From Candidatus Poribacteria bacterium (lineage in GTDB: Bacteria > Poribacteria > WGA-4E > WGA-3G), in NCBI GenBank assembly GCA_965220325.1, contig OZ244821.1, positions 1,179,428 through 1,243,427 of the forward strand: a DNA stretch of 64,000 nucleotides, read 5' to 3'. Positions 6,308 through 61,326 of this stretch are shown piece after piece. Numbering within the stretch: position 1 is the stretch's first letter; each line of letters opens with the position of its first letter. Both the position numbers and the translations under genes were made by a program. Under the pieces are notes generated by a model. The model was not told where the DNA came from. It ran no database searches and saw nothing but the letters and a program-made list of their open reading frames with translations.

Positions 6308-6412
6308 GTAGGACTTACGCATGGTAGAGATATTGATGGACGGAAGGATGGAAGGAACGGAAGGATGGCGGGACACCCCCAATCTTCCAATCTTCCAATC
6401 TTGCGTAAGTCC
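6308..6412. repeat. hairpin microsatellite element: GGACTTACGCA inverted repeats enclosing a (GGAAGGATGG)n / (CCAATCTTCC)n palindromic core
   Basis: AGGACTTACGCATGG at 6311 and CGTAAGTCC at about 6402. The interior is GGAAGG-type repeats followed by their reverse complement. The same family occurs at 33205-33335, with single arms at 25192, 29938 and 38805. Confidence 0.55.
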
Positions 6413-9099: not shown

Positions 9100-10503
9100 A
9101 TGAAAACACAAACGATGTATGAAAAAATATGGGAGGCGCATCTCGTGCGCGCTTCCGCTGATGAGGTGCCGATTCTTTATATCGACACGCATCTCGTCCA
9201 CGAAGTCACATCCCCGCAAGCGTTTGAGGGGCTGCGACTCAACAACCGAAAGGTACGCCGACCTGATCTGACCTTCGCAACGATGGATCACAACGTGCCG
9301 ACGACAGATAGATCGCTACCGATCACCGACCTGATCGCAGCGAAACAGATGGAGACGCTGGCAGAAAATTGCACTGAGTTTGACATCCCGCTCTACGACA
9401 TTGATAGTCCTGATCAAGGGATCGTCCATGTCATCGGACCGGAACTCGGTATCACACAACCCGGTAAGACCATCGTCTGCGGTGATAGCCATACCTCAAC
9501 GCACGGTGCACTCGGTGCACTCGCCTTCGGGATCGGCACGAGTGAGATTGAACATGTCCTCGCGACGCAGTGCCTCTTGCAACAGAAATCAGAGACATTC
9601 GAGATTCGGATTGATGGCACACTCCCCTACGGCGTGACCGCAAAAGACATTATCCTCTCGATTATCGGGCATATCGGTATCGACGGCGGCAACGGCGCTG
9701 TCGTCGAGTATACCGGTTCTGCGATCCGCGCTCTTAGTATTGAGGAGCGGATGACAGTTTGCAATATGTCGATTGAGGCAGGCGCACGCGCCGGTATGAT
9801 CGCACCCGACGATACGACCTATGAATATATCGCTGGCAAACGTTTCGCACCGAAAGGTGAAGATTTTGAGGCAGCGGTTGAACGTTGGAAGCAGCTACCG
9901 ACTGACGAAGGCGCGACTTATGACCGAACGCTACAACTCGATGCAGCTGACATCGCGCCGCAGGTGACATGGGGGACAAACCCCGGTATGGTCACCGATG
10001 TGACAGGACGTGTCCCGGACCCAGCAGCCATGACGACAACCGACGACAAGCGCGCCGCAGAACACGCTTTAGAATATATGGACCTCCAACCCGGCACCCC
10101 GATAACAGATATTCCTGTCGATAGGGTTTTCATCGGTAGCTGCACGAACTCTCGTATCAGCGATTTACGGGCTGCTGCGGAAGTCGCTAAAGGAAGGAAA
10201 GTCGCAGAGAACGTCAGCGCGATGGTCGTCCCGGGTTCGCAGGCGGTTAAACGTCAAGCGGAGGTGGAAGGGCTTGACAAGGTTTTTCAAGAAGCCGGCT
10301 TTGAATGGCGTGAAGCGGGTTGTAGTATGTGCCTCGGTATGAATCCTGATACCCTGATGCCGGGTCAACGTTGTGCCAGCACATCGAACCGGAATTTTGA
10401 AGGTAGACAGGGCAAAGGTGGACGCACGCATCTCGTCAGTCCACAGATGGCGGCTGCGACGGCGGTTACAGGCCGTTTCGTGGACATCCGAAAGTTTCAA
10501 TAG
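9100..10503 (+). CDS. leuC: 3-isopropylmalate dehydratase large subunit
   Basis: [10 protein letters not shown]...[21 protein letters not shown]...[10 protein letters not shown] closely matches LeuC. Confidence 0.9.
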
Positions 10504-10539: not shown

Positions 10540-10761
10540 GTGGAGGTAATAATGGAATCTACCATCATTGAAAAAATCAGGGAGCTTCCTCCAGAGCTCC
10601 AAGAAGAAGTCATTAATTTCATTGATTTCTTGCGAACAAAAGAGAGTTCAAAACGAAAAAAGAAGAAACCAAACTTGGAATGGATTGGCGGATTAAAAGC
10701 GTATCGCGACCAGTTTACGGCTCTCGAACTTCAGAAAAAAGCATCAGATTGGAGGGATTAG
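10540..10761 (+). CDS. orphan DUF2281-like antitoxin
   Basis: TIIEKIRELPPELQEEVINFIDFL parallels TIQEIVQRLDKLTPVQQKQILNSILSFL in the antitoxin at 8711-8941. Sits between leuC and leuD. Confidence 0.5.
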   Translation: MEVIMESTIIEKIRELPPELQEEVINFIDFLRTKESSKRKKKKPNLEWIGGLKAYRDQFTALELQKKASDWRD

Positions 10762-10856
10762 TGTACCTCGCGGATACCAATATTTTCCTTGAAGCCTTGT
10801 TGGAACAAGACCAAAACGAAAAGAACCCATTGAGGTGTTATAATGGAAGCGTTTAA
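10761..10856 (+). pseudogene. decayed VapC (PIN) toxin remnant, about 31 codons
   Basis: GTG-initiated [31 protein letters not shown] then a stop, which is only the PIN N-terminal strand. It overlaps the leuD start. Confidence 0.4.
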
Positions 10857-11433
10857 AGAACACGTTGGACGTGTTGTCCCACTTGACCGGATTAATGTTG
10901 ATACAGACCAGATCATCCCGAAGCAATTCTTGAAACGGATTGAACGGACAGGCTTCGGTGAATTTCTTTTTAACGATTGGCGTTACCTTGAAAATGGTGA
11001 TCCGAACCCAGAATTCGTGCTGAACTTCCCGCGCTATGCAGGTGCCAGTATTCTTGTTGCTGGTGCGAATTTCGGTTGCGGTAGCTCGCGTGAGCATGCC
11101 CCGTGGGCACTTCAGCAGTACGGGTTCAAAGCGATCCTCGCGCCATCGTTTGCGGACATTTTCCGCAATAACTGCTATAAGAACGGTATCCTTCCGATAA
11201 CGCTGCCTGCGGACGTTATCGCATCGCTCAGCCAAGAGGTACACGACACTGAGGGCTATCAATTGATGGTAGATTTGGAGGAGCAATCGGTGATCTGCGC
11301 TGACGGCACTGTACACACTTTTGAGATCGGGGATTTTGAGAAGCACTGCTTGCTGAATGGACTCGATGAAATCGGTTGGACTTTGCAATATGAAGCGGAC
11401 ATCGCAGCGTTTGAAAACCGAGGCAGCGCGTAA
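10843..11433 (+). CDS. leuD: 3-isopropylmalate dehydratase small subunit
   Basis: [49 protein letters not shown] closely matches LeuD. Confidence 0.9.
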
Positions 11434-11513: not shown

Positions 11514-12590
11514 ATGAACGTTTCAAACATAGATCTCTACCGTTTTTTTCCATCGCCGCTGGCACACTTTCCGGACAGAAGCGCGCGGTGGTTGTTTATA
11601 GACCCAGAGAACGTTAAAGGTTTAGTAGAACTCGTCGCGGGGCGTATCGCTACCCTATTGGATTTTAGCCAACTCACAGCCCTCAACCGGGACTTTCTGT
11701 CCGACACGCTCCGTGAACAGGAAGCCGACCTCGTTTTTAGTGTCCCGTTTCGCGATACCTCAGCAGACCAAGAACTGATCATCCACATCCTCATAGAGCA
11801 TCAATCTGGGGTGGACAAAGAGATGTGGTTTCGGTTTTTAGGATATATGTATAATCTCTGGGTTGCAGAACGTCAACGGTGGACAGCGGAGGAGGTTCCG
11901 AAAGAGGAACGCCGGTTGCTTCCGATTCTCCCGATCCTCTTTTACACCGGCGATCAGTCTTGGAGCCTCCCGCTGGCTCCAACTTCACTGATGGAAATCC
12001 CAGAGATACTTGCGCCGTTTGTTCCGACGTTTAACGTACTTTTGTTGGATGTCAAACAGACTGAACCAATCGAACTGACCAAAACAGGACATCCCCTCGG
12101 GTGGTTGCTTACGGTGCTCCAAAAGGAATTATCTTCAAAAGAAGAACTTACTGAGGCCTTAGTGACAGCACTCGATAGTTTAGATACGGTGCAAACCGAG
12201 CAGCATAGACGTGCGATGATATACTTGGCATCGCTCGTATATCATCGACGCCCCCCTGAAGAACGCGATACTTTGATAAAGGTCATAGACGCGCATTCGC
12301 GTGGAATGGAGGTAAAAACCATGTTTCAATCAATGGCAGAAGTCACATTTCAAAAAGGGATAGAGCAAGGGATAGAGCAAGGGATAGAGCAAGGGATAGA
12401 GCAAGGGGAAGCCCGCGCAAAACAGGTGGCACTCCTGAAACTCTTACACCACCAATTTCAGAGCATTCCCGAAACGTTAACAACATGGATTCAGACCCTC
12501 CACGATCCTGTTCATCTTGATAGGCTCTTTGAGAAGGTTCTGAACGCGGAAAACCTTCAAGATATTGACTGGGAGACCGATGACGCGTAA
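11514..12590 (+). CDS. Rpn family recombination-promoting nuclease / putative transposase (PD-(D/E)XK, YhgA-like)
   Basis: IIHILIEHQSGVDKEMWFRFLGYMYNLW core motif. C-terminal tandem (GIEQ)x4 encoded by 12-bp repeats at 12359-12406. Confidence 0.75.
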   Translation: MNVSNIDLYRFFPSPLAHFPDRSARWLFIDPENVKGLVELVAGRIATLLDFSQLTALNRDFLSDTLREQEADLVFSVPFRDTSADQELIIHILIEHQSGVDKEMWFRFLGYMYNLWVAERQRWTAEEVPKEERRLLPILPILFYTGDQSWSLPLAPTSLMEIPEILAPFVPTFNVLLLDVKQTEPIELTKTGHPLGWLLTVLQKELSSKEELTEALVTALDSLDTVQTEQHRRAMIYLASLVYHRRPPEERDTLIKVIDAHSRGMEVKTMFQSMAEVTFQKGIEQGIEQGIEQGIEQGEARAKQVALLKLLHHQFQSIPETLTTWIQTLHDPVHLDRLFEKVLNAENLQDIDWETDDA

Positions 12591-12749
12591 CAACCTCCGC
12601 CTGGTCCCAGGACCCGAGACGGTTATTGGGTTCATTACAGGCACCGATGATGGATTTCTTTAGCATCGGCGCAGTCGCGGCATTATAGCGATGTAGATTG
12701 TTGGTTCATTTGGTACTTGCAGCTCCTTGAAAATCTGTTTGAACTCAGT

Positions 12750-12872
12750 CCTATAGTCGCTGGAAAATAGGATGTTGTGGTGTGCTAACGCTGGGTGCTT
12801 GGGCTTGCATTTTTTCTGCTGTGCCGATCTCTCTTCCGTTAGGGTCGACGAGTATTACGTGTTCTTGGGTCA
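12750..12872 (-). pseudogene. isopentenyl-diphosphate delta-isomerase (idi) 5' fragment, 40 codons
   Basis: Minus-strand translation MTQEHVILVDPNGREIGTAEKMQAQAPSVSTPQH... resembles the Idi N-terminus ([25 protein letters not shown]...) and then terminates. It lies between the Rpn gene and Uma2 gene amid repeats. Confidence 0.4.
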
Positions 12873-12892
12873 TTTATATTTTTTCCTTCTGG

Positions 12893-13095
12893 CACAGGTT
12901 AAGAGATTATGCTACAAAGTGAACAGGAGACCAACAGACTATTCTACAAAAGAACGAACTGGCGATAATAACAGATTATGCTACAAAGAGAACAGGCTAA
13001 CAGCCTATTCTACAAAGAGAACACACGATAACAGCGAACAGGCTAACAGCCTATTCTACAAAAGAGGGAACTGGAGACCAACAGCCTATTTTACT
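12893..13095. repeat. tandem/dispersed AGGCTAACAGCCT-type palindromic repeats (ACAGGCTAACAGCCTATTCTACAAAAGAG units)
   Basis: Four or more units here. Related copies at 1262-1312 and 20207-20338. Confidence 0.5.
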
Positions 13096-13153
13096 GTTGA
13101 ACGGGTGTCACCGAAATTGGGAAAGCCTGTCTATTCGGATGACCGGAATATCT

Positions 13154-13981
13154 CTATTCTTCTGAAGGGCGTGTTTGGAAGCGTGCAAGTTGTTCTCGGA
13201 GACGTTCGACTTCTGCTTCGGCGTTTTCTGCTCGGTCGTGCTGCTGCTGACGTGCAATCGCTTCCCGCTCTGCTTGGGCTTCGGCTGTTTCTGCTCGGGC
13301 TTCGGCTGTTTCTGCTCGGGCTTCGGCTGTTTCTGCTCGGGCAGCCTGCATCTCCTCCGGCGTTTGCAACCACTTGCCACCCATCGGATCGTAAACCCGC
13401 AAACGCCCCTCTTGTATAACGAAATCTAAACTCAGAACATCTGAATGGATACGTCCATCAGCATCCGGTTCTATCGGCACATACACACCCGCTACAAGCC
13501 GAAAACCCATGAGCGGTGGAGACAGATAAAGTGACTCGGCATCATAGAGCAGATAGTTCGATATGCCGAGTGCAGCGTAGAGTGCTTTCTTGTCGGTGAG
13601 GTCGTTCCGATACGTCGTCTTACTTGAGAATTCCATCACAAAATCTGGAACTTTGCCCTCTTCCCAGACTTTGTATGTGTGTCGCCGTTTTTGACCGATG
13701 TCGAAAGCGACGAGAACATCAGGGGCAACGACATCACGAGGGTTGCCCTCGGTGTAATAAGTGAGAATATCACCGGAGACGTAAGTATCGGGCATAGCGG
13801 CGAAATGTTCCCGCAGTGCTTGTATAAGCCAGATAAGGATTTCCAAGTGGAGGTCGCTTGCTGCCATCGGTTTACCGTCCGTATCAGGGTAGAGGTCTGC
13901 TGTATCTGTGGGTGCGTAAGATATATTGCGTCTATTTGTGTGCGTCCGCATCGGTGTTTCTCCTCTGCCGTGAGGCATCAA
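13154..13981 (-). CDS. Uma2 family (DUF820) endonuclease with C-terminal AETAEAR repeat extension
   Basis: YPDTDGKPMAASDLH...VVAPDVLVAFDIGQKRRHTYKVWEEGKVPDFVMEFSSKTT...YAALGISNYLLYD are Uma2 motifs. The C-terminus carries (AETAEARA)x3 from 24-bp tandem repeats at 13255-13330. The start may be M11 (13951). Confidence 0.75.
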   Translation of the reverse strand: MMPHGRGETPMRTHTNRRNISYAPTDTADLYPDTDGKPMAASDLHLEILIWLIQALREHFAAMPDTYVSGDILTYYTEGNPRDVVAPDVLVAFDIGQKRRHTYKVWEEGKVPDFVMEFSSKTTYRNDLTDKKALYAALGISNYLLYDAESLYLSPPLMGFRLVAGVYVPIEPDADGRIHSDVLSLDFVIQEGRLRVYDPMGGKWLQTPEEMQAARAETAEARAETAEARAETAEAQAEREAIARQQQHDRAENAEAEVERLREQLARFQTRPSEE

Positions 13982-14101
13982 AAACGTATCTTAAGGTTCT
14001 GAAGCGTATTATACCTTTTTCGGTAGCAGGATGTCAATCTTTTTATCACGACTGAATCCGTCGGTTTGCTATGTAGCGTTCGATTACCGCACATGAACCG
14101 C

Positions 14102-14407
14102 CTACACATCAGAACCGTTTTGTGGTACGCCGGGGGGCGGTTCTGTAAATTCCTCACTCCGCGCCGCCGCTTCTTTTCTTCGGCGATCCCATTCCACGAT
14201 TTCTTGATAAACTGCGGCCTTGCCTTCAGCAATGCCCTCGGCCTTGCCTTCAGCAATGCCCTCGGCTTTGGCAGCCTGAATCCGTTTTTCTCGCCTGTCA
14301 AGATACCAATCTGACAATAACATAATTACGTCAATGCCTCCTACTATCATTCCAGGATCATTCAATTCTCGATTTGGATATTGGTTTTGCTTTACGTAAG
14401 TGAACAC
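14102..14407 (-). CDS. hypothetical small protein with (AEGIAEGK) tandem repeats
   Basis: GTG start. C-terminal W..RRKEAA...E.F.EP.P tail is shared with 20812-21351. The N-terminal 16 codons are also found as a remnant at 21440-21497 next to a REP copy. Confidence 0.35.
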   Translation of the reverse strand: MFTYVKQNQYPNRELNDPGMIVGGIDVIMLLSDWYLDRREKRIQAAKAEGIAEGKAEGIAEGKAAVYQEIVEWDRRRKEAAARSEEFTEPPPGVPQNGSDV

Positions 14408-14414
14408 CCTTAGG

Positions 14415-14496
14415 AAAGATCGCGAGCGCAGCTCGCTCCTACAGGGGAGGAGTATTTACATAAACAAAGTGAATATGTAAAATTGAATGGTCCTGC
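14415..14496 (+). repeat. REP element copy
   Basis: AAAGATCGCGAGCGCAGCTCGCTCCTACAGGGGAGG...TTTACATAAACAAAGTGAATATGTAAA. Same family as 905-986. Confidence 0.6.
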
Positions 14497-14647
14497 TATG
14501 ATTCCGACTAAAACGCCACCAATAGGAATAAATGCCGAAATATCTTTTACGACATTCTGAACAGAGGGGTGTCCCTTCCAACCTTCTGCTATTTCATAAT
14601 CCACAGCGATGAAACCGTAGATGCTAACAAAAAACGAAATAAGGAAA

Positions 14648-14775
14648 AGTGCTCGCGATAAATATAACGACTCTTTTGTAGGAGCGAGCTGCGCTCGCGA
14701 TCTTCCTCATGCCATCGCGATCTTCCTCATGCCATCGCGATCTTCCTCATGCCATCGCGATCTTCCTCATTCCAT
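14648..14775 (-). repeat. inverted REP copy (TGTAGGAGCGAGCTGCGCTCGCGATC) plus a x4 tandem 20-mer (CATCGCGATCTTCCTCATGC) flanking the RAYT 3' end
   Basis: Reverse complement of the REP core, oriented opposite to the REP array on the other side of the RAYT gene. Confidence 0.55.
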
Positions 14776-15240
14776 CTCATATTTACATCGCCAAAATGGA
14801 TAATCCCGCGCAGCCTTTACCAATCCTGCTCTCACCGGGTTATGATAACAATATTCGATAATAGCGTTCAACGATTCATCCCGTCGAATACCGTGATCAT
14901 GGTAAGCAGGTTGCCAAATCGAACCGCTACGATCCAAACACGCATTAATCTGTTTCGCTGTGTGGCTTTTGAAGGACTGTATGAGTCTTGATAATGTTTG
15001 TTTACTGCCGAGTTGGATAACGGTGTGGATATGATCTGGCATCACACAGATACAAAACCATCTGAGTCGATCATTGGTTTCGAGCCAATCAAATGACTGA
15101 AAAATGATGTCAGCGATTTTGGGAGTTGCAAGCAGCGGTTTTTTCTTAAGTGTCGTAAGCGTGAGATAATAGTAGGTACCGGGTATGGAGTATCTGCCTT
15201 TACGGAGTTGTCGGTGTCCGCGGGTGGGTGTTCGTTGCAT
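14767..15240 (-). CDS. REP-associated tyrosine transposase (RAYT, IS200/IS605-like HuH transposase)
   Basis: 157 aa. HuH motif VMPDHIHTVIQL, SIWQPAYHDHGIR, and catalytic-Tyr region EYCYHNPVRAGLVKAARDYPFW, collinear with E. coli TnpA_REP. Flanked by inverted REPs. Confidence 0.9.
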   Translation of the reverse strand: MQRTPTRGHRQLRKGRYSIPGTYYYLTLTTLKKKPLLATPKIADIIFQSFDWLETNDRLRWFCICVMPDHIHTVIQLGSKQTLSRLIQSFKSHTAKQINACLDRSGSIWQPAYHDHGIRRDESLNAIIEYCYHNPVRAGLVKAARDYPFWRCKYEME

Positions 15241-15274: not shown

Positions 15275-15608
15275 GCCAAGATCGCGAGCACAGGGTCAAG
15301 ATCGCGAGCATAGTGCCAAGATCGCGAGCGACAAGAAACACCGTTTTTGCTTGGGCGTTTCTTGTAAGCAAAAACACTCGCTCCTACACAAGAGACGTTA
15401 GAATAATCGCGAGCACAGCTCGCTCCTACACAAGAGACGTTAGAATAATCGCGAGCACAGCTCGCTCCTACACAAGAGACGTTAGAATAATCGCGAGCAC
15501 AGCTCGCTCCTACACAAGAGACGTTAGAATAATCGCGAGCACAGCTCGCTCCTACACAAGAGACGTTAGAATAATCGCGAGCACAGCTCGCTCCTACACA
15601 AGAGGTGT
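15275..15608 (+). repeat. REP tandem array (about 7 units; five near-identical 42-bp units AATCGCGAGCACAGCTCGCTCCTACACAAGAGACGTTAGAAT)
   Basis: Direct tandem repeats with no spacers, so not CRISPR. The first units carry a 45-bp insertion in the hairpin loop identical to that in copy 21497. Confidence 0.65.
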
Positions 15609-20811: not shown

Positions 20812-21351
20812 TTAATTCGGCTGCTGCTCAGCAGGAGATGGTTCGTCAAAGGGTTCACCCGCAGCTTCAGCTGCTTCTTTTCGCTTGAACCATTCAATCC
20901 ATGCTTGATTTGCCATCTGGAACCCCTCGGCTTTGCCCTCGGCTTTGCCTTCCGCTTTGCCCTCGGCTTTGCCCTCGGCTTTGCCCTCGGCTATACCTTC
21001 CGCTATACCTTCCGCTTTACCCTCGGCATAAACTCGGTCTCTAAATAACTTTGCATACCCAAACATGATTTCCTCCAGTATATGTGAAAAAATGAAAAAG
21101 AAGCCAACAATCAACGCCATCAGAACAGACGTTCGCGTTAATAACGTTCCACCTAATGCCTCCAACCTCCAACCAAAGAGAACTTCAAGTAATAGATTCA
21201 GTATTACAAGACTTGAAAAAATCCGAGCGAATACATAGAACCATTTTCGCGGGATCCGGACTAACGATACATAGTCCTTATCATTTGATGCCATCAACTG
21301 AAACATCCTTTCAAAATAGGGCGTGATAAAAGGTGCAATACACAGGACCAT
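20812..21351 (-). CDS. small membrane protein with C-terminal (AEGK)n repeat tract
   Basis: Three predicted TM helices, then AEGKAEGIAEGIAEGKAEGKAEGKAEGKAEGKAEG from 12-bp tandem repeats, then a W..KRKEAAEAAGEPFDEP tail paralogous to 14102-14407. Confidence 0.5.
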   Translation of the reverse strand: MVLCIAPFITPYFERMFQLMASNDKDYVSLVRIPRKWFYVFARIFSSLVILNLLLEVLFGWRLEALGGTLLTRTSVLMALIVGFFFIFSHILEEIMFGYAKLFRDRVYAEGKAEGIAEGIAEGKAEGKAEGKAEGKAEGKAEGFQMANQAWIEWFKRKEAAEAAGEPFDEPSPAEQQPN

Positions 21352-21407: not shown

Positions 21408-21496
21408 GGATTTTTTTATCAAGATTTTGATGCAGGGCCATTCAATTCTCGATTTGGATATTGGTTTTGCTTTACAGAGGTGAACATTCTTACGGA

Positions 21497-21621
21497 AAAT
21501 CGCGAGCGTGAAGAAACACCGTTTTTGCTTGGGCGTTTCTTAAGCAAAAACACTCGCTCCTACCGGGGAATCATATTCACAGATATAAAGTGAATAGGTA
21601 CAATTGAATGGCCCTGATAGT
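21497..21621 (+). repeat. REP copy with 45-bp hairpin-loop insertion
   Basis: CGCGAGCG[TGAAGAAACACCGTTTTTGCTTGGGCGTTTCTTAAGCAAAAACAC]TCGCTCCTAC...TTCACAGATATAAAGTGAATAGGTACA. The insert is itself a hairpin (GTTTTTGCTT/AAGCAAAAAC). Confidence 0.6.
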
Positions 21622-21948: not shown

Positions 21949-23091
21949 GTGAAAAATAATAATATGAAAAAGTTTATAGCAGGCGAATACAGACAACAGA
22001 GAGAATATAAGAGTTTTACACCGTCCCTCGTAAACCGCTATTTTGTTTGGGAAGACCCACAGATAAATATTCTAATGGCAAGGGCAATGCAGCTCTTAGG
22101 AGAGTTAAATGCTTATGCCGAACTCATACCAGATGTAGATTTCTTCATTCAAATGACAATTACGAAAGAAGCTCGAGATTCAAATCTGCTTGAAGGGACG
22201 AGAACCGAACTTGATGAAGTTGTTCTTCCGCACACGGAAATTCCGCCGACCAGACGCGGTGATAGACAAGAGGTTCAAAATTATATTGAAGCGATGAATT
22301 TCGCAATAGCCGAACTTCCAAAAATTCCGATTTCGATGCGACTTCTCAAGGATGTACATAAAATACTACTTTCCGGTGTTCGCGGAAAACACAAGGCACC
22401 CGGTGAAATTCGCAGAAGTCAAAACTGGATTGGCGGTTCCTCGGTTTCTGATGCTTTTTTCGTTCCACCTTCTCCAGAAGAAGTCCCAGATCTTTTAAGT
22501 GATTTGGAGAAATTTTGGCACAACCGATCCCTGCAAATTCCGGAACTGATTAAAATCGCTATCACACATTATCAGTTTGAGACCATTCACCCCTTCCTTG
22601 ATGGAAACGGTAGGTGCGGGAGACTGTTAATCGTCTTGCAACTCATTGATGCAAAGATACTTGAGAAGCCGGGGCTTTATGTATCTACTTTTTTTCAGAG
22701 ACATAAAGATGCGTACTATGATTCACTTACTACGGTCCGTAAATTGAATAAATTAGATCAATGGATATTGTTTTTCTTAGAAGGAATCGCTGATGCTGCC
22801 AAGGATACAAGAGAAACGTTCAAGTCGATTACTGCGCTTCGTCAAGAATATGATACAGCGATTTTTACCTTGGGTTCTCGGGCAAAGAACGCTCAAAAAT
22901 TACTACTTTTTATGTACTCCCAACCGATTGTTAACGTAAATTGGGTTGCAACGGAATTAAACATAAACTATCCAACCGCGAACCGTCTCCTAAAATGTTT
23001 GACAGAACTTGACATACTAAAGGAAATTACGGGATACTCGCGTAATCGCTTTTTTGTCTTGGAGAAATACCTGAACCTCTTCAGAAGTTAG
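21949..23091 (+). CDS. fic: Fic family protein (class II, intramolecular inhibitory helix), probable AMP-transferase
   Basis: Canonical HPFLDGNGRCGRLL (HPFx[DE]GNGR) motif. The inhibitory motif SNLLEG ([ST]xxxE[GN]) lies N-terminal to the core. C-terminal wHTH-like region. Confidence 0.85.
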   Translation: MKNNNMKKFIAGEYRQQREYKSFTPSLVNRYFVWEDPQINILMARAMQLLGELNAYAELIPDVDFFIQMTITKEARDSNLLEGTRTELDEVVLPHTEIPPTRRGDRQEVQNYIEAMNFAIAELPKIPISMRLLKDVHKILLSGVRGKHKAPGEIRRSQNWIGGSSVSDAFFVPPSPEEVPDLLSDLEKFWHNRSLQIPELIKIAITHYQFETIHPFLDGNGRCGRLLIVLQLIDAKILEKPGLYVSTFFQRHKDAYYDSLTTVRKLNKLDQWILFFLEGIADAAKDTRETFKSITALRQEYDTAIFTLGSRAKNAQKLLLFMYSQPIVNVNWVATELNINYPTANRLLKCLTELDILKEITGYSRNRFFVLEKYLNLFRS

Positions 23092-24093: not shown

Positions 24094-25191
24094 ATGAAAA
24101 TTCGAGATATTAAAGTCTATCAAGTGGATCTGCCGCTTTATGAAGGCAGCTACAACTGGTCCGGCGGAAAATCTGTTTCCGTTTTCGACAGTACGATTGT
24201 CTCCGTTGAAACAGACGAAGGTATTACCGGCTACGGTGAAGTCTGTCCGTTGGGACCGTTCTATCTGCCTGCTTACGCCACCGGTGCACGTACCGGTATC
24301 GCTGAACTTGCACAGCACCTCATCGGTGAAGACCCGACGCAACTCCTCCCGCTCAACCGACAGATGGACATCGCACTCAAGGGGCATCCGTACGTGAAAT
24401 CTGCAATCGACATGGCGTGCTGGGATATCCTCGGGAAAGCTTCAAACGCATCTATCTGCACGCTTCTCGGTGGGCGGTATGGCGAGGACTTCATGCTCTA
24501 TCGCGCGATCTCACAGGAATCGCCTGACGAGATGGCGGCGAAGGTTGCAACTTACCGGGCGGAGGGGTACCGTAAATTCCAGTTGAAAGTCGGCGGGGAT
24601 CCAAATACCGATATCGAACGTATCCACGCTGTCGCCGAGTTGATGGAATCGGGAGATGTGCTGATCGCGGATGCAAACACGGGGTGGTTGATGCACCAAG
24701 CTGCTCGCGTCGTCCGAGGTGTGAGCGATGTGGATGTCTATATCGAGCAGCCCTGTCTCTCATACGAAGAGTGCCTCGCCATCCGTCAGCGGACCGACCA
24801 CCCCTTTGTTCTCGATGAGACCATCGACGGCATCCACGCCTTATTACGCGGTCATGCCGACCGGGCGATGGATGTTGTGAATATCAAGATTAGCAAATTC
24901 GGCGGATTGACCAAAGCGAAACTCGCCAGAGACCTCTGCGTTGAACTCGGCGTAGCGATGACGATTGAAGACAGCTGGGGCGGCGATATTACAACCGCCG
25001 CGATTGCGCATCTGGCACACAGCACACCGCCAGAATTCCTTTTCACAGCGACGGATTTCAACAGTTATGTCACTGTCAGCACGGCGGAAGGCGCGCCGCA
25101 ACGGGTTAACGGCAGGATGGCAGCGTCAACGCAACCAGGTTTGGGGATTACACCGAAGATGGGGGTGTTGGGTGAAGAGCGGAAGAGGTGA
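24094..25191 (+). CDS. mandelate racemase/muconate lactonizing enzyme family (enolase superfamily) protein
   Basis: MR/MLE N-terminal capping domain plus barrel with metal-ligand region. 365 aa. Confidence 0.8.
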
Positions 25192-25270
25192 AGAGGGAAG
25201 GATGGAAGGCGGAAAGATGGAAGAGGGGAGGATGGAAGACCGGAGGATGGAAGAGGGGAGGCGGGAAGTT

Positions 25271-26236: not shown

Positions 26237-26309
26237 TTAGGACTTACGCATGCGGCTCTTTCGTACCACAAACTTTATGAAGATTAAATAAATATTTGGG
26301 TAATCGTTA

Positions 26310-26388
26310 AAGATCGCGAGCGCAGCTCGCTCCTACAGGGAAGAAGTATTTACATAGATAAAGTGAATATGTAAACTAAATACCCCTA
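26310..26388 (+). repeat. REP element copy
   Basis: AAAGATCGCGAGCGCAGCTCGCTCCTACAGGGAAGAAGTATTTACATAGATAAAGTGAATATGTAAA, immediately 3' of the LamG-protein gene. Confidence 0.6.
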
Positions 26389-29144: not shown

Positions 29145-30511
29145 GGCAGTACAAACTTTCCGAGGATTTTCCGAACAGATGCCCCTGTCGCTGAAGGCAG
29201 GTTCCCCGCATTTCCGTGGAGCGTCTCATTCGCCAGAATCGCGAACGCGATCGCCTCCTTCGCATCCGCTGAGATACCAGAGGTGTTCACAGGTTCAACT
29301 GTCGTGTTTTCCAATACTTCGCTCAACCGTTGCATGAGGGTCTGATTGTGGACACCGCCGCCACTCACATAAAGCACGTCTATCGGATTTTGTCCCGCTA
29401 TAAATTGTGCGATGTAGCCGGTAATCGTTTGGACCGTCAACTCGGTCAGTGTCGCGATGCAGTCGTTATCTGAAAGTGTGCGCTTCCGGCAAGCTGTGAG
29501 ACATTCCATCGCATAATTGCGTCCAAACATCTCACGTCCAGTCGTTTTTGGCGGTGGCAGATGGAAAAACGGGTGCTTCAACCATTCGTCAATGATCGGT
29601 TGGTGCGGCGTACCCTGCGCGGCACGCTGCCCCGCTGCGTCATACCGTTCTGTCCCTTCCGTGATCTCTGTTATGACAGCGTCAATACACATATTGCCGG
29701 GCCCCGTATCCGCGGCACAGACAGTATCGAATGCGCCATTTGCCGGAAGCACCGTGAGATTCGCAATCCCGCCGATATTCAAGAGTCCGACTGTTTCAGT
29801 GCTGTTGTGGAACAGCAGATAATCTGGGTATGATACCAACGGTGCACCTTGTCCGCCTGCTGCCATATCCGCGACGCGGAAATCCGCTATCGTTGGAATC
29901 CCTGTTTCGTGTGCAATGACTGCAGGCTCCCCAATCTGCAATGTCGATGACAGGGTGGAAGGGTGGAAGGGTGGAAGGGTGGAAGGGATTGGAAGGGATT
30001 GGAAGGATGGAAGGGCGGAAGGATGGGGGGGATTGGAAGGGTGGATGGGTGGAAGGGTGGAAGGGATTGGAAGGGATTGGAAGGATGGAAGGGCGGAAGG
30101 ATGGAGGGGATTGGAAGGATGGAAGGGTGGAAGGGTGGAAGGGATGTTTGGGTCTTTCGGGAGGTGATGGATCGTTTGGCCGTGTGAACCGATGAGGTCA
30201 ATATCGCTGGTAGACATTTCGCTTTTTTGTAGGATGTGTTTAACTGCCTCAGCGAAGAGGTATCCGATATAGAAATTCATTTCACAGATGTCGTCAACAC
30301 GACCCGTATCGGGTTGACAGAGCGCAAGGATACGTTGTGGCACGCCAGATGGAAACGGAACAGTCTCAAAAGCGATCAGGTCTACTTTAGTTTCCAAACC
30401 GTGTCCGACAATTTCGACAATAGCAGCATCAATGCCGTCAACTGAGGTACCGGACATTAACCCGATAACCAATTTTTTATCTTTCTTGAGAAGTTCAAAA
30501 AAATGTTTCAT
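29141..30511 (-). CDS. anmK: anhydro-N-acetylmuramic acid kinase with an in-frame roughly 65 aa Pro-rich repeat insertion
   Basis: GLMSGTSVDGIDAAIVEI..., GSHGQTIHH..., TLQIGEPAVIAHETGIPTIADFRVADMAAGGQGAPLV are collinear with E. coli AnmK. The insert TLPPFHPSNPLHPSALPSFQSLPIPS... is encoded by CCTTCC repeats. Confidence 0.85.
   Translation of the reverse strand: MKHFFELLKKDKKLVIGLMSGTSVDGIDAAIVEIVGHGLETKVDLIAFETVPFPSGVPQRILALCQPDTGRVDDICEMNFYIGYLFAEAVKHILQKSEMSTSDIDLIGSHGQTIHHLPKDPNIPSTLPPFHPSNPLHPSALPSFQSLPIPSTLPPIHPSNPPHPSALPSFQSLPIPSTLPPFHPSTLSSTLQIGEPAVIAHETGIPTIADFRVADMAAGGQGAPLVSYPDYLLFHNSTETVGLLNIGGIANLTVLPANGAFDTVCAADTGPGNMCIDAVITEITEGTERYDAAGQRAAQGTPHQPIIDEWLKHPFFHLPPPKTTGREMFGRNYAMECLTACRKRTLSDNDCIATLTELTVQTITGYIAQFIAGQNPIDVLYVSGGGVHNQTLMQRLSEVLENTTVEPVNTSGISADAKEAIAFAILANETLHGNAGNLPSATGASVRKILGKFVLP
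29938..30172. repeat. (GGAAGG[GA]TGG)n microsatellite block lying inside the anmK reading frame
   Basis: GGGTGGAAGGGTGGAAGGGTGGAAGGGATTGGAAGG... on the plus strand. Same repeat family as 6337-6400, 25192-25268, 33215-33300 and 38805-38850. Confidence 0.6.
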
Positions 30512-31971: not shown

Positions 31972-33264
31972 CTATATAGTGTACACGATGTTGTGGAACA
32001 TCCTCCGAAAGTCGATGATACCGCGCCGGTCAGCATCAGGGTGCACCCGATTTGTCAGCAGGATAGCCGCGAGTTTCCTTTTCAGGCATATCCGTATTGA
32101 GGTACCGGTGAATCCTGTATGATAGAGACACCCATCGTCTGTTACGATCCAACCGATACAACGGCGTTCTCCTTCCGCTGAAACGACTTGACGCATCGTG
32201 TTAAGACTCTCCGGCCGCAATAAACCGTTTCCGCCGCTATCCATCAACGCTTTACAAAACTTTCCGAGGTCTGTTGACGTAGAAAAGAGACCTGCGTTTC
32301 CTGAAATCCCGCCGAGGAAATGTGCGTTTTCGTCGTGTACCTGTCCGATAATCACGCCTTCGCGCCAGTCGTAGCGTTCGTAGTTGACCATCCGACGTTC
32401 AAAACTGTTTGAATCCTCAGTCGCTGCACAATTCTTATGCCATTCCTGCGGTGGATTGAACCGCGTCCACTCCATACCGAGCGGCGCGAAAATCCGCTCT
32501 TCTGATAGTTCGTCAAGCGACTGTCCTGTTACCCTTTCAAGCAATTTACCGAGTACGATATACCCTAAGCAGCTATACACCGTCTTTTCTCCGGGTTGAG
32601 ATGCCAAAGCGATCTGACCGAGGTAAGAGACAACCCGCTCACGAGATTCCGCCCGTAGATAGAGCGGTATCCATGCCGGGAGTCCAGAGGTATGCGCCAG
32701 CAGGTGTGTGAGCGTTACGCCCTTCTGTCGGAATTCCGGCAGATATTCCTGCACCGGTCTACGCAGTGAAAGTTCACCGCTTTCAACGAGTTGCATGCAA
32801 AGTGTTCCGACAACAATAGGTTTTGTCAGCGATGCTAAGTCAAAGAGTGTCCTGCGAAGCATCGGGAGGCGTTTCGGTTTTACGCATCGGAAGCCGAACG
32901 CTTCATGGTAAATCACTCGCTCGCTAGTGAGAATGTATGCAACAGCTCCGGGGAACACCTTTTCCGAAATGCTATTTTGAATAAGTGTCGAAATCGTATT
33001 TTTAATTATTGGCCTCCGTACATCGTTCCACTTCGTTTCACGATGGTTTCTGATCAAGGACGCAACACAAGTAGAAACAAACACATCGGAAATAACCAAA
33101 AACCTGCTCGAAATGTAATGGAGAGCAGAAAAAGTACCTCTAATTATTGGCCTCCGTACATCGTTCCACTTCGTTTCACGGCAGAAAAAGAGCCAATATC
33201 TTAAATAGGACTTAGGCAAAAGTGGAAGAGTGGAAGAGTGGAAGAGTGGAAGGTGTCCTTCCAT
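31972..33264 (-). CDS. beta-lactamase-fold serine hydrolase (AmiE/YbbE-like, probable MurNAc-peptide amidase); start uncertain
   Basis: SxxK motif LASLTKP. N-terminal FPGAVAYILTSERVIYHEAFG. Coupled to namZ with a 2 nt gap. The first 90 or so codons of the track ORF are repeat-derived (GGAAGG block plus a 40-bp direct repeat). Confidence 0.55.
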   Translation of the reverse strand: MEGHLPLFHSSTLPLLPKSYLRYWLFFCRETKWNDVRRPIIRGTFSALHYISSRFLVISDVFVSTCVASLIRNHRETKWNDVRRPIIKNTISTLIQNSISEKVFPGAVAYILTSERVIYHEAFGFRCVKPKRLPMLRRTLFDLASLTKPIVVGTLCMQLVESGELSLRRPVQEYLPEFRQKGVTLTHLLAHTSGLPAWIPLYLRAESRERVVSYLGQIALASQPGEKTVYSCLGYIVLGKLLERVTGQSLDELSEERIFAPLGMEWTRFNPPQEWHKNCAATEDSNSFERRMVNYERYDWREGVIIGQVHDENAHFLGGISGNAGLFSTSTDLGKFCKALMDSGGNGLLRPESLNTMRQVVSAEGERRCIGWIVTDDGCLYHTGFTGTSIRICLKRKLAAILLTNRVHPDADRRGIIDFRRMFHNIVYTI

Positions 33265-33335
33265 CCTTCCGTTCCTTCCATCCTTCCGTTCCTTCCATCC
33301 TTCCGTCCATCAATATCTCTACCATGCGTAAGCCC
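33205..33335. repeat. hairpin microsatellite element (GTGGAAGA)n-(TTCCATCCTTCCG)n bounded by AGGACTTAGGCA / TGCGTAAGCCCT
   Basis: Reverse-complement arrangement of the 6308-6412 element, including TAGAGATATTGATGGACGGAAGG. Confidence 0.55.
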
Positions 33336-38803: not shown

Positions 38804-38862
38804 AGATTGGAAGATTGGAAGATTGGAAGGGTGGAAGAGGGGAAGAAAGGTAGATCGGAACG

Positions 38863-61179: not shown

Positions 61180-61326
61180 GTCGCGAGCGTGAAGAAATCC
61201 GCAGAAATACCCAGGCAATACGCAGAAATACCCAAGCAAATACACCCCAAGCAAATACACTCGCTCCTACCGGGGAAGCGTATTCACATAGATAAAGTGA
61301 ATATGTAAAACTAAACACCCCTGCTA
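61180..61326 (+). repeat. REP copy with a 70-bp loop insertion made of CAGAAATACCCARGCAAATAC repeats
   Basis: GTCGCGAGCG[insert]CACTCGCTCCTACCGGGGAAGCGTATTCACATAGATAAAGTGAATATGTAAAACTAAACACCCCTG. Confidence 0.6.

What the first reader, a model, noticed from the sequence alone, without database searches (positions are those of the whole stretch)
12340..14300. Consecutive mobile-element nucleases all carry in-frame acidic tandem peptide repeats
- **Repeat tracts.** Rpn has (GIEQ)x4. Uma2 has (AETAEARA)x3. The small proteins at 14102-14407 and 20812-21351 have (AEGIAEGK) and (AEGK)x8. In each case the encoding unit is a 12- or 24-bp perfect tandem DNA repeat.
- **Shared character.** The repeats are Ala/Glu/Gly-rich and lie in C-terminal extensions outside the catalytic folds.
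- **Interpretation.** This may be a shared slippage-prone sequence context. It may also be a functional low-complexity module, for example phase-variable length, a linker, or multimerisation, common to this genome's selfish nucleases.
Basis: seen in the sequence. Interest (0 to 1): 0.5.

Follow-up and report, generated by a model that had tools for sequence, protein, structure and literature searches.

The report
Length-variable helical repeats in three gene families
Four short in-frame DNA repeats in a sponge-symbiont (Poribacteria) genome encode helical peptide segments whose copy number changes between close relatives; one case is the already described Rpn toxin/antitoxin specificity helix, and the other two (a Uma2 nuclease tail and a small membrane protein) look like the same trick in other families.

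Summary
The four tandem repeats are real and far beyond chance, but several details were wrong. The Uma2 unit is 21 bp / 7 aa, not 24 bp / 8 aa. Only the Rpn array is perfect. The two "small proteins" are not nucleases. They belong to an uncharacterised family of small proteins with two predicted membrane helices, and the copy at 14102-14407 is a fragment split by a REP/MITE-like insertion.

**Rpn.** (GIEQ)4 is the known hypervariable 4-aa repeat of the RpnL toxin / intragenic RpnS antitoxin (Zhong et al. 2023). A Shine-Dalgarno site plus ATG lies exactly 12 codons upstream, and this is conserved in 75 of 76 Poribacteria paralogs.

**Uma2.** The tail is a heptad repeat followed by a conserved end motif.

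**Small family.** The repeats are (G-x-x-E)n, followed by a conserved W..RR.EA..GE.F.EPPP tail.

**Copy number.** In all three families it varies in whole units, even within clusters of at least 90% identity: Rpn 1-17, Uma2 1-6, small family 1-9 (0-15 in distant relatives).

**Reading.** Slippage on in-frame units changes the length of helices that probably serve oligomerisation or spacing. This is not on/off phase variation and not one homologous "nuclease module". Rpn and the small family do share unit types, and natural chimeras are joined at the tract.

The Rpn part is known; the rest is a modest new variant.

The parts
11514..12590 (+). Rpn (RpnL) gene, 358 aa. YhgA-like PD-(D/E)XK nuclease domain at residues 28-228, followed by a C-terminal RpnS/DUF4351-like region.
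   Evidence: Pfam PF04754 E=6e-25, 88 bits against a cut-off of 21. PF14261 scores 20.6 bits, below its cut-off of 25. 657 homologs found; those that carry a source name are Cand. Poribacteria.
12308..12312 (+). GGAGG Shine-Dalgarno site for the internal start of RpnS, 8 nt upstream of ATG 12321.
   Evidence: Sequence. In 75 of 76 Poribacteria Rpn genes a Met lies 12 codons before the first repeat unit, with GGAGG/AGGAG 8-11 nt upstream. The Glu codon inside the SD is GAG in 75/75 against a 36% background (p=5e-34). Only 9 of 401 control internal Mets have any SD-like site.
12321..12590 (+). Predicted intragenic RpnS antitoxin ORF, 89 aa, in the same frame as Rpn.
   Evidence: Conserved internal start site. 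The AF2 model (pLDDT 80) has a long helix at residues 4-45 that holds the repeats, then helices at 51-59 and 63-75. This matches the description of E. coli RpnAS as a three-helix bundle with a long first helix (PMC10400941).
12357..12416 (+). Rpn repeat tract: four perfect 12-bp units GGGATAGAGCAA (GIEQ), then GEAR.
   Evidence: TRF 12355-12407, 100%; codon layout. Close relatives carry 1, 2 or 3 GIEQ units (P0004, P0001/P0002, L004); the family range is 1-17 units.
13154..13951 (-). Uma2 family PD-(D/E)XK endonuclease gene, 265 aa from ATG 13951. The mechanical ORF extends to TTG 13981.
   Evidence: Pfam PF05685 E=6e-17. P0241 is 100% identical, 265 aa, on a 6.11-Mb Poribacteria contig.
13269..13342 (-). 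Uma2 heptad array: 21-bp unit x3.5, encoding (A)RAETAE repeats in the C-terminal tail.
   Evidence: TRF 98%; layout. Homologs have 1-6.4 heptads, and their lengths fall into classes 7 aa apart. The window's own >=90% cluster contains 3-heptad, 2-heptad and shorter forms.
14102..14353 (-). 3' fragment of a gene of the small membrane-protein family: second predicted membrane helix, repeat, and conserved tail VYQEIVEWDRRRKEAAARSEEFTEPPPG.
   Evidence: 326 homologs, mostly ~150 aa, all without a Pfam family. blastn aligns L001 1576-2785 to window 14353-13144 at 97.5%.
14215..14270 (-). 24-bp x2.3 array encoding GIAE-GKAE-GIAE-GKAA.
   Evidence: TRF; layout. Members of the >=90% identity cluster have 2, 3 or 4 units.
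14354..14490 (.). REP/MITE-like insertion of ~137 nt that splits the small gene. It is flanked by an imperfect 15-bp direct duplication (14339-14353 / 14491-14505).
   Evidence: Comparison with the intact ortholog locus L001. Partial copies lie at 898-971, 21439-21508, 26309-26375 and 61260-61310.
14491..14649 (-). 5' fragment of the same small gene (first predicted membrane helix and loop). Its first ~72 nt are replaced by the RAYT/REP block.
   Evidence: blastn aligns L001 1432-1590 to window 14649-14491; translation.
20812..21351 (-). Second, divergent member of the small family (179 aa, hydrophobic N-terminal region), with the tail WIEWFKRKEAAEAAGEPFDEPSP.
   Evidence: BLASTP against the first copy gives E=6e-12 over repeat plus tail. 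It is included in family profile A1, which finds 968 representative clusters.
20924..21027 (-). 12-bp x8.7 array encoding AEGK/AEGI units. The units differ by synonymous changes.
   Evidence: TRF 88%; layout showing GCCGAGGGTAAA / GCGGAAGGTATA / GCCGAGGGCAAA / GCGGAAGGCAAA.

Best explanation
The four tracts are in-frame short tandem DNA repeats of 12, 21 and 24 bp. They encode periodic alpha-helical peptide and sit in three unrelated multi-copy gene families of a Candidatus Poribacteria genome. They gain and lose whole units, most simply by replication slippage or unequal recombination, so the helix changes length while the reading frame stays intact.

1. **Rpn.** The tract lies in the first helix of the C-terminal domain. 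That domain is also translated on its own, from an internal SD+ATG at 12308/12321, as the RpnS antitoxin. In E. coli this helix is in the RpnS dimer interface, and the number of 4-aa units decides which RpnS neutralises which RpnL nuclease. The window gene is a new member of that system.
2. **Uma2.** The tract is a heptad-periodic, Ala/Glu/Arg-rich stalk. It lies between the nuclease domain and a conserved C-terminal motif (AEAEVERLREQLARxQ). I infer a coiled-coil or stalk of adjustable length that mediates self-association or spacing.
3. **Small family.** After two predicted membrane helices and a basic stretch, a (G-x-x-E/Q)n helix of adjustable length carries a conserved W..RR.EA..GE.F.EPPP tail. 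By the positive-inside rule this is probably on the cytoplasmic side. I infer a variable-length stalk or oligomerisation helix.

**Shown here:** the repeats, their reading frames, the family assignments, the conserved internal start in Rpn, and unit-wise copy-number polymorphism in all three families.

**Taken from the literature:** the Rpn mechanism.

**Inferred:** the slippage mechanism and the functional roles in Uma2 and the small family.
For: - **Arrays and frames:**. Chance is excluded.
- **Family assignment:** (PF04754, PF05685; small family, no Pfam family).
- **Rpn copy number:** homologs carry 1-16 units at the same site. 79 Poribacteria genomic loci carry 0-11 units.
- **Rpn internal start:** SD+ATG conserved in 75/76 genes, with GAG codon bias p=5e-34.
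- **RpnS model:** a long helix containing the repeats plus two short helices.
- **Published Rpn mechanism:** repeats start 8-20 aa after the RpnS Met, their number varies among strains, and a mismatched number abolishes neutralisation (PMC10400941).
- **Uma2 in Poribacteria:** 120 homologs show 1-6.4 heptads, and lengths cluster by 7 aa.
- **Uma2 in other phyla:** two of four plasmid Uma2 genes examined have heptad or 14-aa tandem repeats before a similar terminal motif.
- **Small family:** 1-9 units among close homologs and 0-15 among 150 distant representatives. Two adjacent, nearly identical paralogs in L002 differ by 9 versus 3 units.
- **Strain level:** all three families show whole-unit differences inside clusters of at least 90% identity.
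- **Slippage plus selection on the peptide:** within Rpn arrays, 251 same-peptide unit pairs are DNA-identical and 123 differ only synonymously. The small2 units differ synonymously.
Against: - No experiment or read-level data exist for this organism.
- PF14261 (DUF4351) is below threshold on the window protein (20.6 against 25 bits).
- For Uma2 and the small family there is no evidence of oligomerisation. AF2 gives low confidence in the small protein's repeat region (pLDDT <50 at residues 104-119).
- Within-genome Rpn paralogs are no more different in unit number than between-genome pairs (5/39 against 11%). So there is no statistical support here for an 'identity code'.
- The window's first small-family copy is broken, so its tract is not under current selection.
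Confidence: 0.7

Rival explanations
1. One reading: the tracts are one shared, functionally equivalent low-complexity module carried by this genome's selfish nucleases, spread among them by a common sequence context.
For: - Rpn and the small family use the same 4-aa unit types. GKAE/GIAE units occur in Rpn paralogs L048 and L077, and GIEQ/GLEQ units occur in small-family members.
- Chimeras are joined at the tract. P0362 has the small-family membrane N-terminus joined to an Rpn-type C-domain. P0497 has the Rpn pre-repeat motif MQSMAE..LEQ joined to the small-family tail.
- These chimeras sit on 4.6-5.6 Mb contigs.
Against: - Two of the four genes are not nucleases.
- Uma2 uses a 7-aa unit and shares no unit type with the other families.
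- The DNA units in the window share no sequence.
- Flanking sequences are family-specific.
- The small family is not co-located with Rpn: 2 of 79 loci over 1.0 Mb of flanks.
Confidence: 0.15
2. The small proteins with two predicted membrane helices are trans-acting, membrane-tethered RpnS-like partners. They would pair with RpnL through the shared G-x-x-E/Q helix, as an extra antitoxin or a sensor.
For: - The unit repertoire is shared and natural chimeras exist.
- Stand-alone RpnS-like genes (RpnSs) are known in E. coli (PMC10400941).
- They also occur downstream of some Poribacteria rpn genes, for example in L046 and L066.
Against: - There is no homology between the small-family tail and DUF4351/RpnS; profile hits to Rpn cover only the repeats.
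- There is no genomic linkage: 2/79 Rpn loci, and six other contexts share no partner gene.
- The window tracts do not match each other: (GIEQ)4 against GIAE/GKAE units.
Confidence: 0.08
3. The tracts are neutral by-products of a slippage-prone, repeat-rich genome and have no function in Uma2 or the small family.
For: - The window holds many other tandem arrays and REP/MITE repeats.
- Several arrays are DNA-perfect, which implies recent expansion.
- There is no within-genome avoidance signal for Rpn tracts.
Against: - The tract sits at the same position in hundreds of homologs and keeps helical periodicity.
- Synonymous divergence between units preserves the peptide.
- Every unit is a multiple of 3 bp.
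- A conserved motif always follows the tract.
- Function is demonstrated for the Rpn case (PMC10400941).
Confidence: 0.15
4. The tracts are contingency loci that switch the genes on and off by frameshifting (classical phase variation).
For: Only the presence of perfect tandem DNA repeats inside ORFs.
Against: - Units are 12, 21 and 24 bp, so gain or loss never shifts the frame.
- All length variants observed are in frame and full length.
Confidence: 0.02

Closest known systems
RpnL/RpnS toxin with intragenic antitoxin (E. coli RpnA-E, RpnP2; Zhong et al., PNAS 2023, PMC10400941; RpnAS structure PDB 7TH0)
   Same: - YhgA-like PD-(D/E)XK domain (PF04754).
- A C-terminal helical domain with its own SD+ATG.
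- 4-aa units of one hydrophobic residue plus charged residues or Gly, starting 12 aa after the internal Met (published range 8-20).
- Copy number varies among close relatives, and there are many paralogs per genome.
- Neighbouring defence genes: SoFic, and a Uma2 with weak hits to a PADLOC candidate defence family.
   Different: - Phylum Poribacteria; only ~23-28 bits to the E. coli RpnA-type NCBIfam models.
- DUF4351 is below the Pfam threshold.
- No experimental evidence here for toxicity, RpnS translation or phage defence.
- The tract reaches 17 units in relatives.
FliH/YscL AxxxG(xxxG)m glycine repeats (Trost & Moore, BMC Microbiol 2009, PMC2674601)
   Same: Glycine at every fourth residue in a helix, with the number of units varying widely between bacteria. 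NCBIfam FliH models give weak local hits to exactly the repeat region of RpnS and the small family.
   Different: There is no homology outside the repeat: 18-39 bits against cut-offs of 180-293. The protein context is different and no flagellar or type III secretion genes are nearby.
Yae1/Lto1 deca-GX3 motif (Pfam Yae1_N, PF09811)
   Same: A G-x-x-x periodic helix. From my own knowledge (not checked here), it is used for heterodimerisation. The window's second small protein gives a weak hit.
   Different: The hit is below threshold (22.5 against 27.5 bits). It is a eukaryotic family with a fixed number of units.
EcoR124I/EcoR124II HsdS TAEL repeats (as cited in PMC10400941)
   Same: Gain or loss of one 4-aa unit in a helical spacer changes specificity, and it is produced by a 12-bp tandem repeat.
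   Different: There the helix sets the spacing between two DNA-recognition domains. No such domains flank the tracts here.
Uma2 family (PF05685) endonucleases of cyanobacteria and other phyla
   Same: The same nuclease domain. The tail plan is also the same: TPEE, then E/R/A-rich heptads, then a conserved A.RL.E.LR.LG-type end. It is seen in Thiodictyon with ~4 heptads and in Cylindrospermopsis with (EQETQRAEREKLLK)x6.
   Different: The unit is A/T-R-A-E-x-A-E, with Ala at the i, i+3 and i+4 positions. There is also a second 14-aa module (ARADREAIARQQQH) that varies in number. I found no published description of this variability.

Membership tests
Rpn (RpnL/RpnS) toxin-intragenic antitoxin | YhgA-like PD-(D/E)XK nuclease domain | tested here: met
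   PF04754 E=6e-25, 88.4 bits against a cut-off of 21, residues 28-228. The conserved D..P / IEHQS columns are present.
Rpn (RpnL/RpnS) toxin-intragenic antitoxin | Internal translation start with a ribosome-binding site giving a small C-terminal protein | tested here: met
   At sequence level only. GGAGG at 12308-12312 lies 8 nt before ATG 12321. The pair is conserved in 75/76 Poribacteria genes, with GAG in 75/75 (p=5e-34); controls 9/401. Translation itself is not testable here.
Rpn (RpnL/RpnS) toxin-intragenic antitoxin | 4-aa repeats starting 8-20 residues after the RpnS Met, with the number variable among strains | tested here: met
   The repeats start 12 residues after the Met. Relatives carry 1-17 units, including inside clusters of at least 90% identity.
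Rpn (RpnL/RpnS) toxin-intragenic antitoxin | RpnS = DUF4351-type three-helix bundle that dimerises through a long first helix | tested here: inconclusive
Rpn (RpnL/RpnS) toxin-intragenic antitoxin | RpnL toxicity blocked by cognate RpnS; anti-phage activity | not testable with these tools
   Needs expression and phage assays.
Uma2 family endonuclease (PF05685) | Uma2 PD-(D/E)XK domain | tested here: met
   E=6e-17, 62 bits against a cut-off of 27, residues 41-183. 1787 homologs.
Coiled-coil / heptad-repeat stalk | 7-residue periodicity with small or hydrophobic residues at a/d-like positions | tested here: met
   The 21-bp unit encodes ARAETAE, with Ala at i, i+3 and i+4. Actual coiled-coil formation is not testable here.
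FliH/YscL glycine-repeat proteins | Homology to FliH beyond the GxxxG tract | tested here: not met
   Only local hits of 18-39 bits against cut-offs of 180-293, confined to the repeat.
Phase-variable contingency genes (SSR frameshift switches) | Repeat unit not divisible by 3, so that copy change shifts the frame | tested here: not met
   Units are 12, 21 and 24 bp. All variants are in frame.
Nuclease (claimed for the two small ORFs) | Any recognisable nuclease domain | tested here: not met
   No Pfam, NCBIfam or PADLOC family. The AF2 model of the intact ortholog is three helices; the first two correspond to the hydrophobic segments.
Stand-alone RpnS (RpnSs) genes | Small-ORF homology to DUF4351/RpnS downstream of the repeat | tested here: not met
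   The small-family tail (W..RR.EA..GE.F.EPPP) differs from the RpnS C-domain. Profile hits to Rpn cover only the repeat.

The most novel reading that the evidence does not exclude
The G-x-x-E/Q 12-bp repeat is a portable, recombinogenic junction shared between Rpn toxin-antitoxin genes and a large, undescribed family of small membrane proteins (968 representative clusters). Modules are swapped at the tract: a membrane N-terminus, an RpnS C-domain, or the 'GEPFDEPPP' tail. Variable-length helices would then act as partner-specificity codes in at least three multi-copy families (Rpn, Uma2, small family), possibly with the membrane proteins pairing with Rpn.
Probability: 0.12. Interest if true: 0.7.

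Novelty: new variant of a known kind. Interest (0 to 1): 0.4.

Why it matters
- **Rpn.** The window adds a distant phylum to a recently described system. It also gives unusually clean comparative evidence (75/76 genes) that the internal RpnS start site is conserved. That supports the generality of 'antitoxin within toxin' genes.
- **Uma2 and the small membrane family.** Unit-wise length variation of a helix next to a conserved terminal motif suggests that tuning helix length by slippage is a general way for multi-copy defence or selfish gene families to diversify. If so, the question of what the Rpn repeats are for becomes testable in other families.
- **Practical point.** These tracts and the REP/MITE insertion are places where gene callers and assemblers will mis-annotate. 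The source genome's annotation calls a 73-aa protein from the broken gene.

Tried and rejected
- **Paralogs in the window.** A six-frame phmmer search found no further Rpn or Uma2 copy. A hit at 21422-21559 turned out to be the MITE sequence, not the gene family.
- **Exact look-up of the window's Uma2.** Not on record.
- **Co-localisation of the small family with Rpn.** 2 of 79 loci, so rejected as a linked pair.
- **Conserved neighbour of the small family.** Six contexts were examined and they share no partner.
- **'Identity code' test.** Within-genome Rpn paralogs are no more different than between-genome pairs.
- **Internal start upstream of the Uma2 tail.** The Met in EEMQAARAE is not conserved in homologs, and GGAGGAG abuts the ATG without a spacer (sequence). 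Rejected.
- **Taxonomic spread of the small family beyond Poribacteria.** Unresolved.
- **Defence and curated-family libraries.** PADLOC and NCBIfam give no family for the small proteins.


Full report
**1. The observation**

Tandem Repeats Finder reports all four arrays:

| Coordinates | Unit | Copies | Identity |
|---|---|---|---|
| 12355-12407 | 12 bp | 4.4 | 100% |
| 13269-13342 | 21 bp | 3.5 | 98% |
| 14215-14270 | 24 bp | 2.3 | 96% |
| 20924-21027 | 12 bp | 8.7 | 88% |

Laid out by codon, these arrays give:
- (GIEQ)4 followed by GEAR in ORF 11514-12590(+).
- (TAEARAE)x3.5 in ORF 13154-13981(-).
- GIAE-GKAE-GIAE-GKAA in ORF 14102-14407(-).
- Nine AEG[KI] units in ORF 20812-21351(-).

Thirty Markov-1 simulations of the window produced no array of score >=100 with a period divisible by three. 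The real window has 11 such TRF rows. The repeats are therefore real.

- The Uma2 unit is 7 aa / 21 bp, not AETAEARA / 24 bp.
- Only the Rpn array is perfect.
- AEGK is not acidic.
- The two small ORFs are not nucleases (below).

**2. What the genes are**

Pfam identifies ORF 11514-12590 as a YhgA-like Rpn protein (PF04754, E=6e-25). It also gives a sub-threshold DUF4351 match immediately after the repeat. ORF 13154-13981 is Uma2 (PF05685, E=6e-17). Both tracts lie C-terminal to the nuclease domains.

The small ORFs match no Pfam, NCBIfam or PADLOC family. They are homologous to each other across the repeat and a C-terminal tail (E=6e-12).

Named database hits place the window in Candidatus Poribacteria. 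A 100%-identical Uma2 (P0241) and a 100%-identical small fragment (P0126) come from a 6.11-Mb contig.

**3. Rpn**

*What is published.* Zhong et al. 2023 (PMC10400941) showed the following:
- rpn genes encode a toxic nuclease, RpnL, and an antitoxin, RpnS, which is translated from an internal start.
- RpnS is a three-helix bundle that dimerises through a long first helix.
- 4-aa repeats (one hydrophobic residue plus charged residues or Gly, e.g. KGIE) begin 8-20 residues after the RpnS Met.
- The repeat number varies among strains.
- An RpnS with a mismatched repeat number no longer neutralises RpnL.

*What the window shows.* The window gene fits this description:
- GGAGG at 12308-12312 lies 8 nt upstream of ATG 12321.
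- The first GIEQ unit begins 12 codons later.
- Across the window gene plus 75 Poribacteria rpn genes fetched from genomes, 75 of 76 have a Met exactly 12 residues before the first unit.
- All 75 have an SD-like site 8-11 nt upstream (GGAGG in 62, AGGAG in 11, one GGAG, one GAGG).
- The Glu codon embedded in the SD is GAG in 75/75, against 36% GAG elsewhere in these genes (p=5e-34).
- Only 9 of 401 other internal Mets have any SD-like site.
- An AF2 model of the 89-aa product (pLDDT 80) has a long helix at residues 4-45, which contains the repeats, and two short helices.

Structural searches of the PDB were non-specific and did not retrieve 7TH0. The fold criterion therefore stays inconclusive.

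*Copy number.*
- The closest relatives have one to three GIEQ units: P0001 (93% identity) and P0002 have two, P0004 has one, and L004 has three. The window has four.
- The 120 best homologs range from 1 to 16 units.
- One cluster of at least 90% identity ranges from 4 to 17 units.

*How the arrays evolve.* Inside the arrays, 251 same-peptide unit pairs are DNA-identical and 123 differ only synonymously. This indicates recent slippage together with maintenance of the peptide.

**4. Uma2**

All 120 best homologs are 65-100% identical to the window protein; the few that carry a name are Poribacteria. They share one tail plan:
- ...WLQTPxE.
- Then 1-6.4 units of [AT]RAE[TND]AE.
- In some members, one or two copies of a 14-aa module (ARADREAIARQQQH).
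- Finally the conserved end AEAEVERLREQLARxQ.

Protein lengths fall into classes 7 aa apart. Inside the window protein's own cluster of at least 90% identity there are three forms. One has three heptads (265 aa, 8 members). One has two heptads and an otherwise identical tail (258 aa). The third is 237 aa.

Four plasmid Uma2 genes from other phyla were read:
- Thiodictyon has about four RA[DE]xER heptads.
- Cylindrospermopsis has (EQETQRAEREKLLK)x6.
- Two others have short tails.
- All four end in an A.RL.E.LR.LG-type motif.

Analogous tracts therefore exist outside Poribacteria. There is no conserved internal start, so nothing suggests an Rpn-like intragenic antitoxin. A coiled-coil or stalk function is an inference from periodicity and position.

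**5. The small proteins**

*The family.* The 101-aa ORF matches 326 proteins; the few that carry a name are from Poribacteria. Most are ~150 aa and have this plan:
- Two hydrophobic segments, predicted to be membrane helices.
- SDWYL.RREKRIQAAKAE.
- (G[IK]AE)n with n = 1-9.
- VYxEIxxWDxRRxEAxARGExFxEPPPG.

A profile search of 1.84 billion representatives finds 968 clusters (178 at E<=1e-10). All are small proteins with 0-15 G-x-x-E/Q units before a W..WN.RR.EAEA.GEPFDEPPP-like tail.

AF2 models the intact ortholog as three helices, with low confidence in the repeat region.

*The window copy is broken.* Comparison with the 97.5%-identical locus L001 shows two defects:
- A ~137-nt REP/MITE-like element at 14354-14490, flanked by an imperfect 15-bp duplication, splits the gene.
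- Its first ~72 nt are replaced by a block containing an IS200-like/RAYT gene and REP arrays.

*Copy-number variation.* In L002 two adjacent, nearly identical paralogs differ by nine versus three units. A third paralog there carries (GLEQ)5. Members of the window copy's cluster of at least 90% identity have 2, 3 or 4 units.

*Genomic context.* Contexts are scattered and share no conserved partner.

**6. Is there a shared module?**

Uma2 clearly stands apart, with a 7-aa unit and different residues.

Rpn and the small family share unit types:
- GKAE/GIAE runs occur in Rpn paralogs L048 and L077.
- GIEQ/GLEQ runs occur in small-family members.

Chimeras are joined at the tract:
- P0362 has the small-family membrane N-terminus plus an Rpn-type C-domain.
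- P0497 has the Rpn pre-repeat motif plus the small-family tail.
- P0385 has a small-family tail followed by an RpnS-like region.

These sit on 4.6-6.2 Mb contigs. This hints that the 12-bp repeat can act as a recombination junction.

Against a functional link:
- The two families are not co-located: 2 of 79 Rpn loci in 1.0 Mb.
- The tails are not homologous.
- The window's DNA units share no sequence.
- Rpn paralogs within one genome are no more different in unit number than pairs from different genomes.

**7. Verdict**

- The interpretation (slippage-prone, functional, length-variable, multimerisation) is partly supported.
- 'Common to the genome's selfish nucleases' and 'phase-variable' in the on/off sense are not supported.
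- The Rpn tract is an instance of a published phenomenon.
- The Uma2 heptad variability and the G-x-x-E membrane-protein family are, as far as the searches here show, undescribed variants of the same kind.

Noticed in passing
window 14354-14490; related copies at 898-971, 21439-21508 (+21587-21611), 26309-26375 and 61260-61310: A ~137-nt REP/MITE-like element containing the palindrome GTAGGAGCGAGCTGCGCTCGCGATC. One copy is inserted into the small membrane-protein gene, with an imperfect 15-bp flanking duplication.
   Followed up: partly
window 14767-15240(-), with arrays at 14695-14776, 15275-15329 and 15377-15604: An IS200-like (Y1 transposase, RAYT-type) gene flanked by 20-bp and 42-bp tandem arrays of the same REP palindrome. 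This block is absent from the syntenic locus L001 and replaces the 5' end of the small gene.
   Followed up: partly
window 21949-23091(+): A Fic-domain gene that matches the PADLOC SoFic defence model at E=3e-113. It lies divergently next to the second small-family gene. Uma2 also weakly matches the PADLOC candidate family PDC-S03 (E~7e-8). Together with Rpn, the region looks like a defence / variable island.
   Followed up: no
window 10540-10761(+), between leuC (9100-10503) and leuD (10843-11433): A DUF2281 antitoxin-like ORF (E=3e-16) is wedged between the two isopropylmalate dehydratase subunit genes. It is followed by what looks like a truncated PIN-like reading frame.
   Followed up: no
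window 6335-6402, 25174-25268, 29952-30145, 33221-33308, 38804-38846: Several arrays with an 8-bp period of GGAAGG-type units (e.g. AGGGTGGA x22). Their coding context and meaning were not examined.
   Followed up: no
window 12880-13110 (between Rpn and Uma2): Repeated CTATTCTACAAA(A)GA and GATTATGCTACAAAG motifs in the intergenic region. Synteny with L001 ends just beyond the Uma2 stop, so this is a junction of independently acquired segments.
   Followed up: no
L046 7175-7492, L066 7105-7341, and about 20 other Rpn loci whose tblastn match spans 1.3-1.6 kb: In L046 and L066 the rpn gene is followed by a second RpnS-like ORF with its own repeat tract (the RpnSs arrangement of Zhong et al.). 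In L046 the downstream copy has two more units than the copy inside the gene. The other long-match loci were not inspected individually.
   Followed up: partly
L002 10001-11790: Three small-family genes lie in tandem downstream of an LTD-domain protein. Two are nearly identical except for 9 versus 3 repeat units. The third uses GLEQ units.
   Followed up: partly
window 57047-57650: A 66-bp x9 (also 132/198-bp) tandem array of ~77-81% identity. It is probably a repeat-domain protein and was not examined.
   Followed up: no
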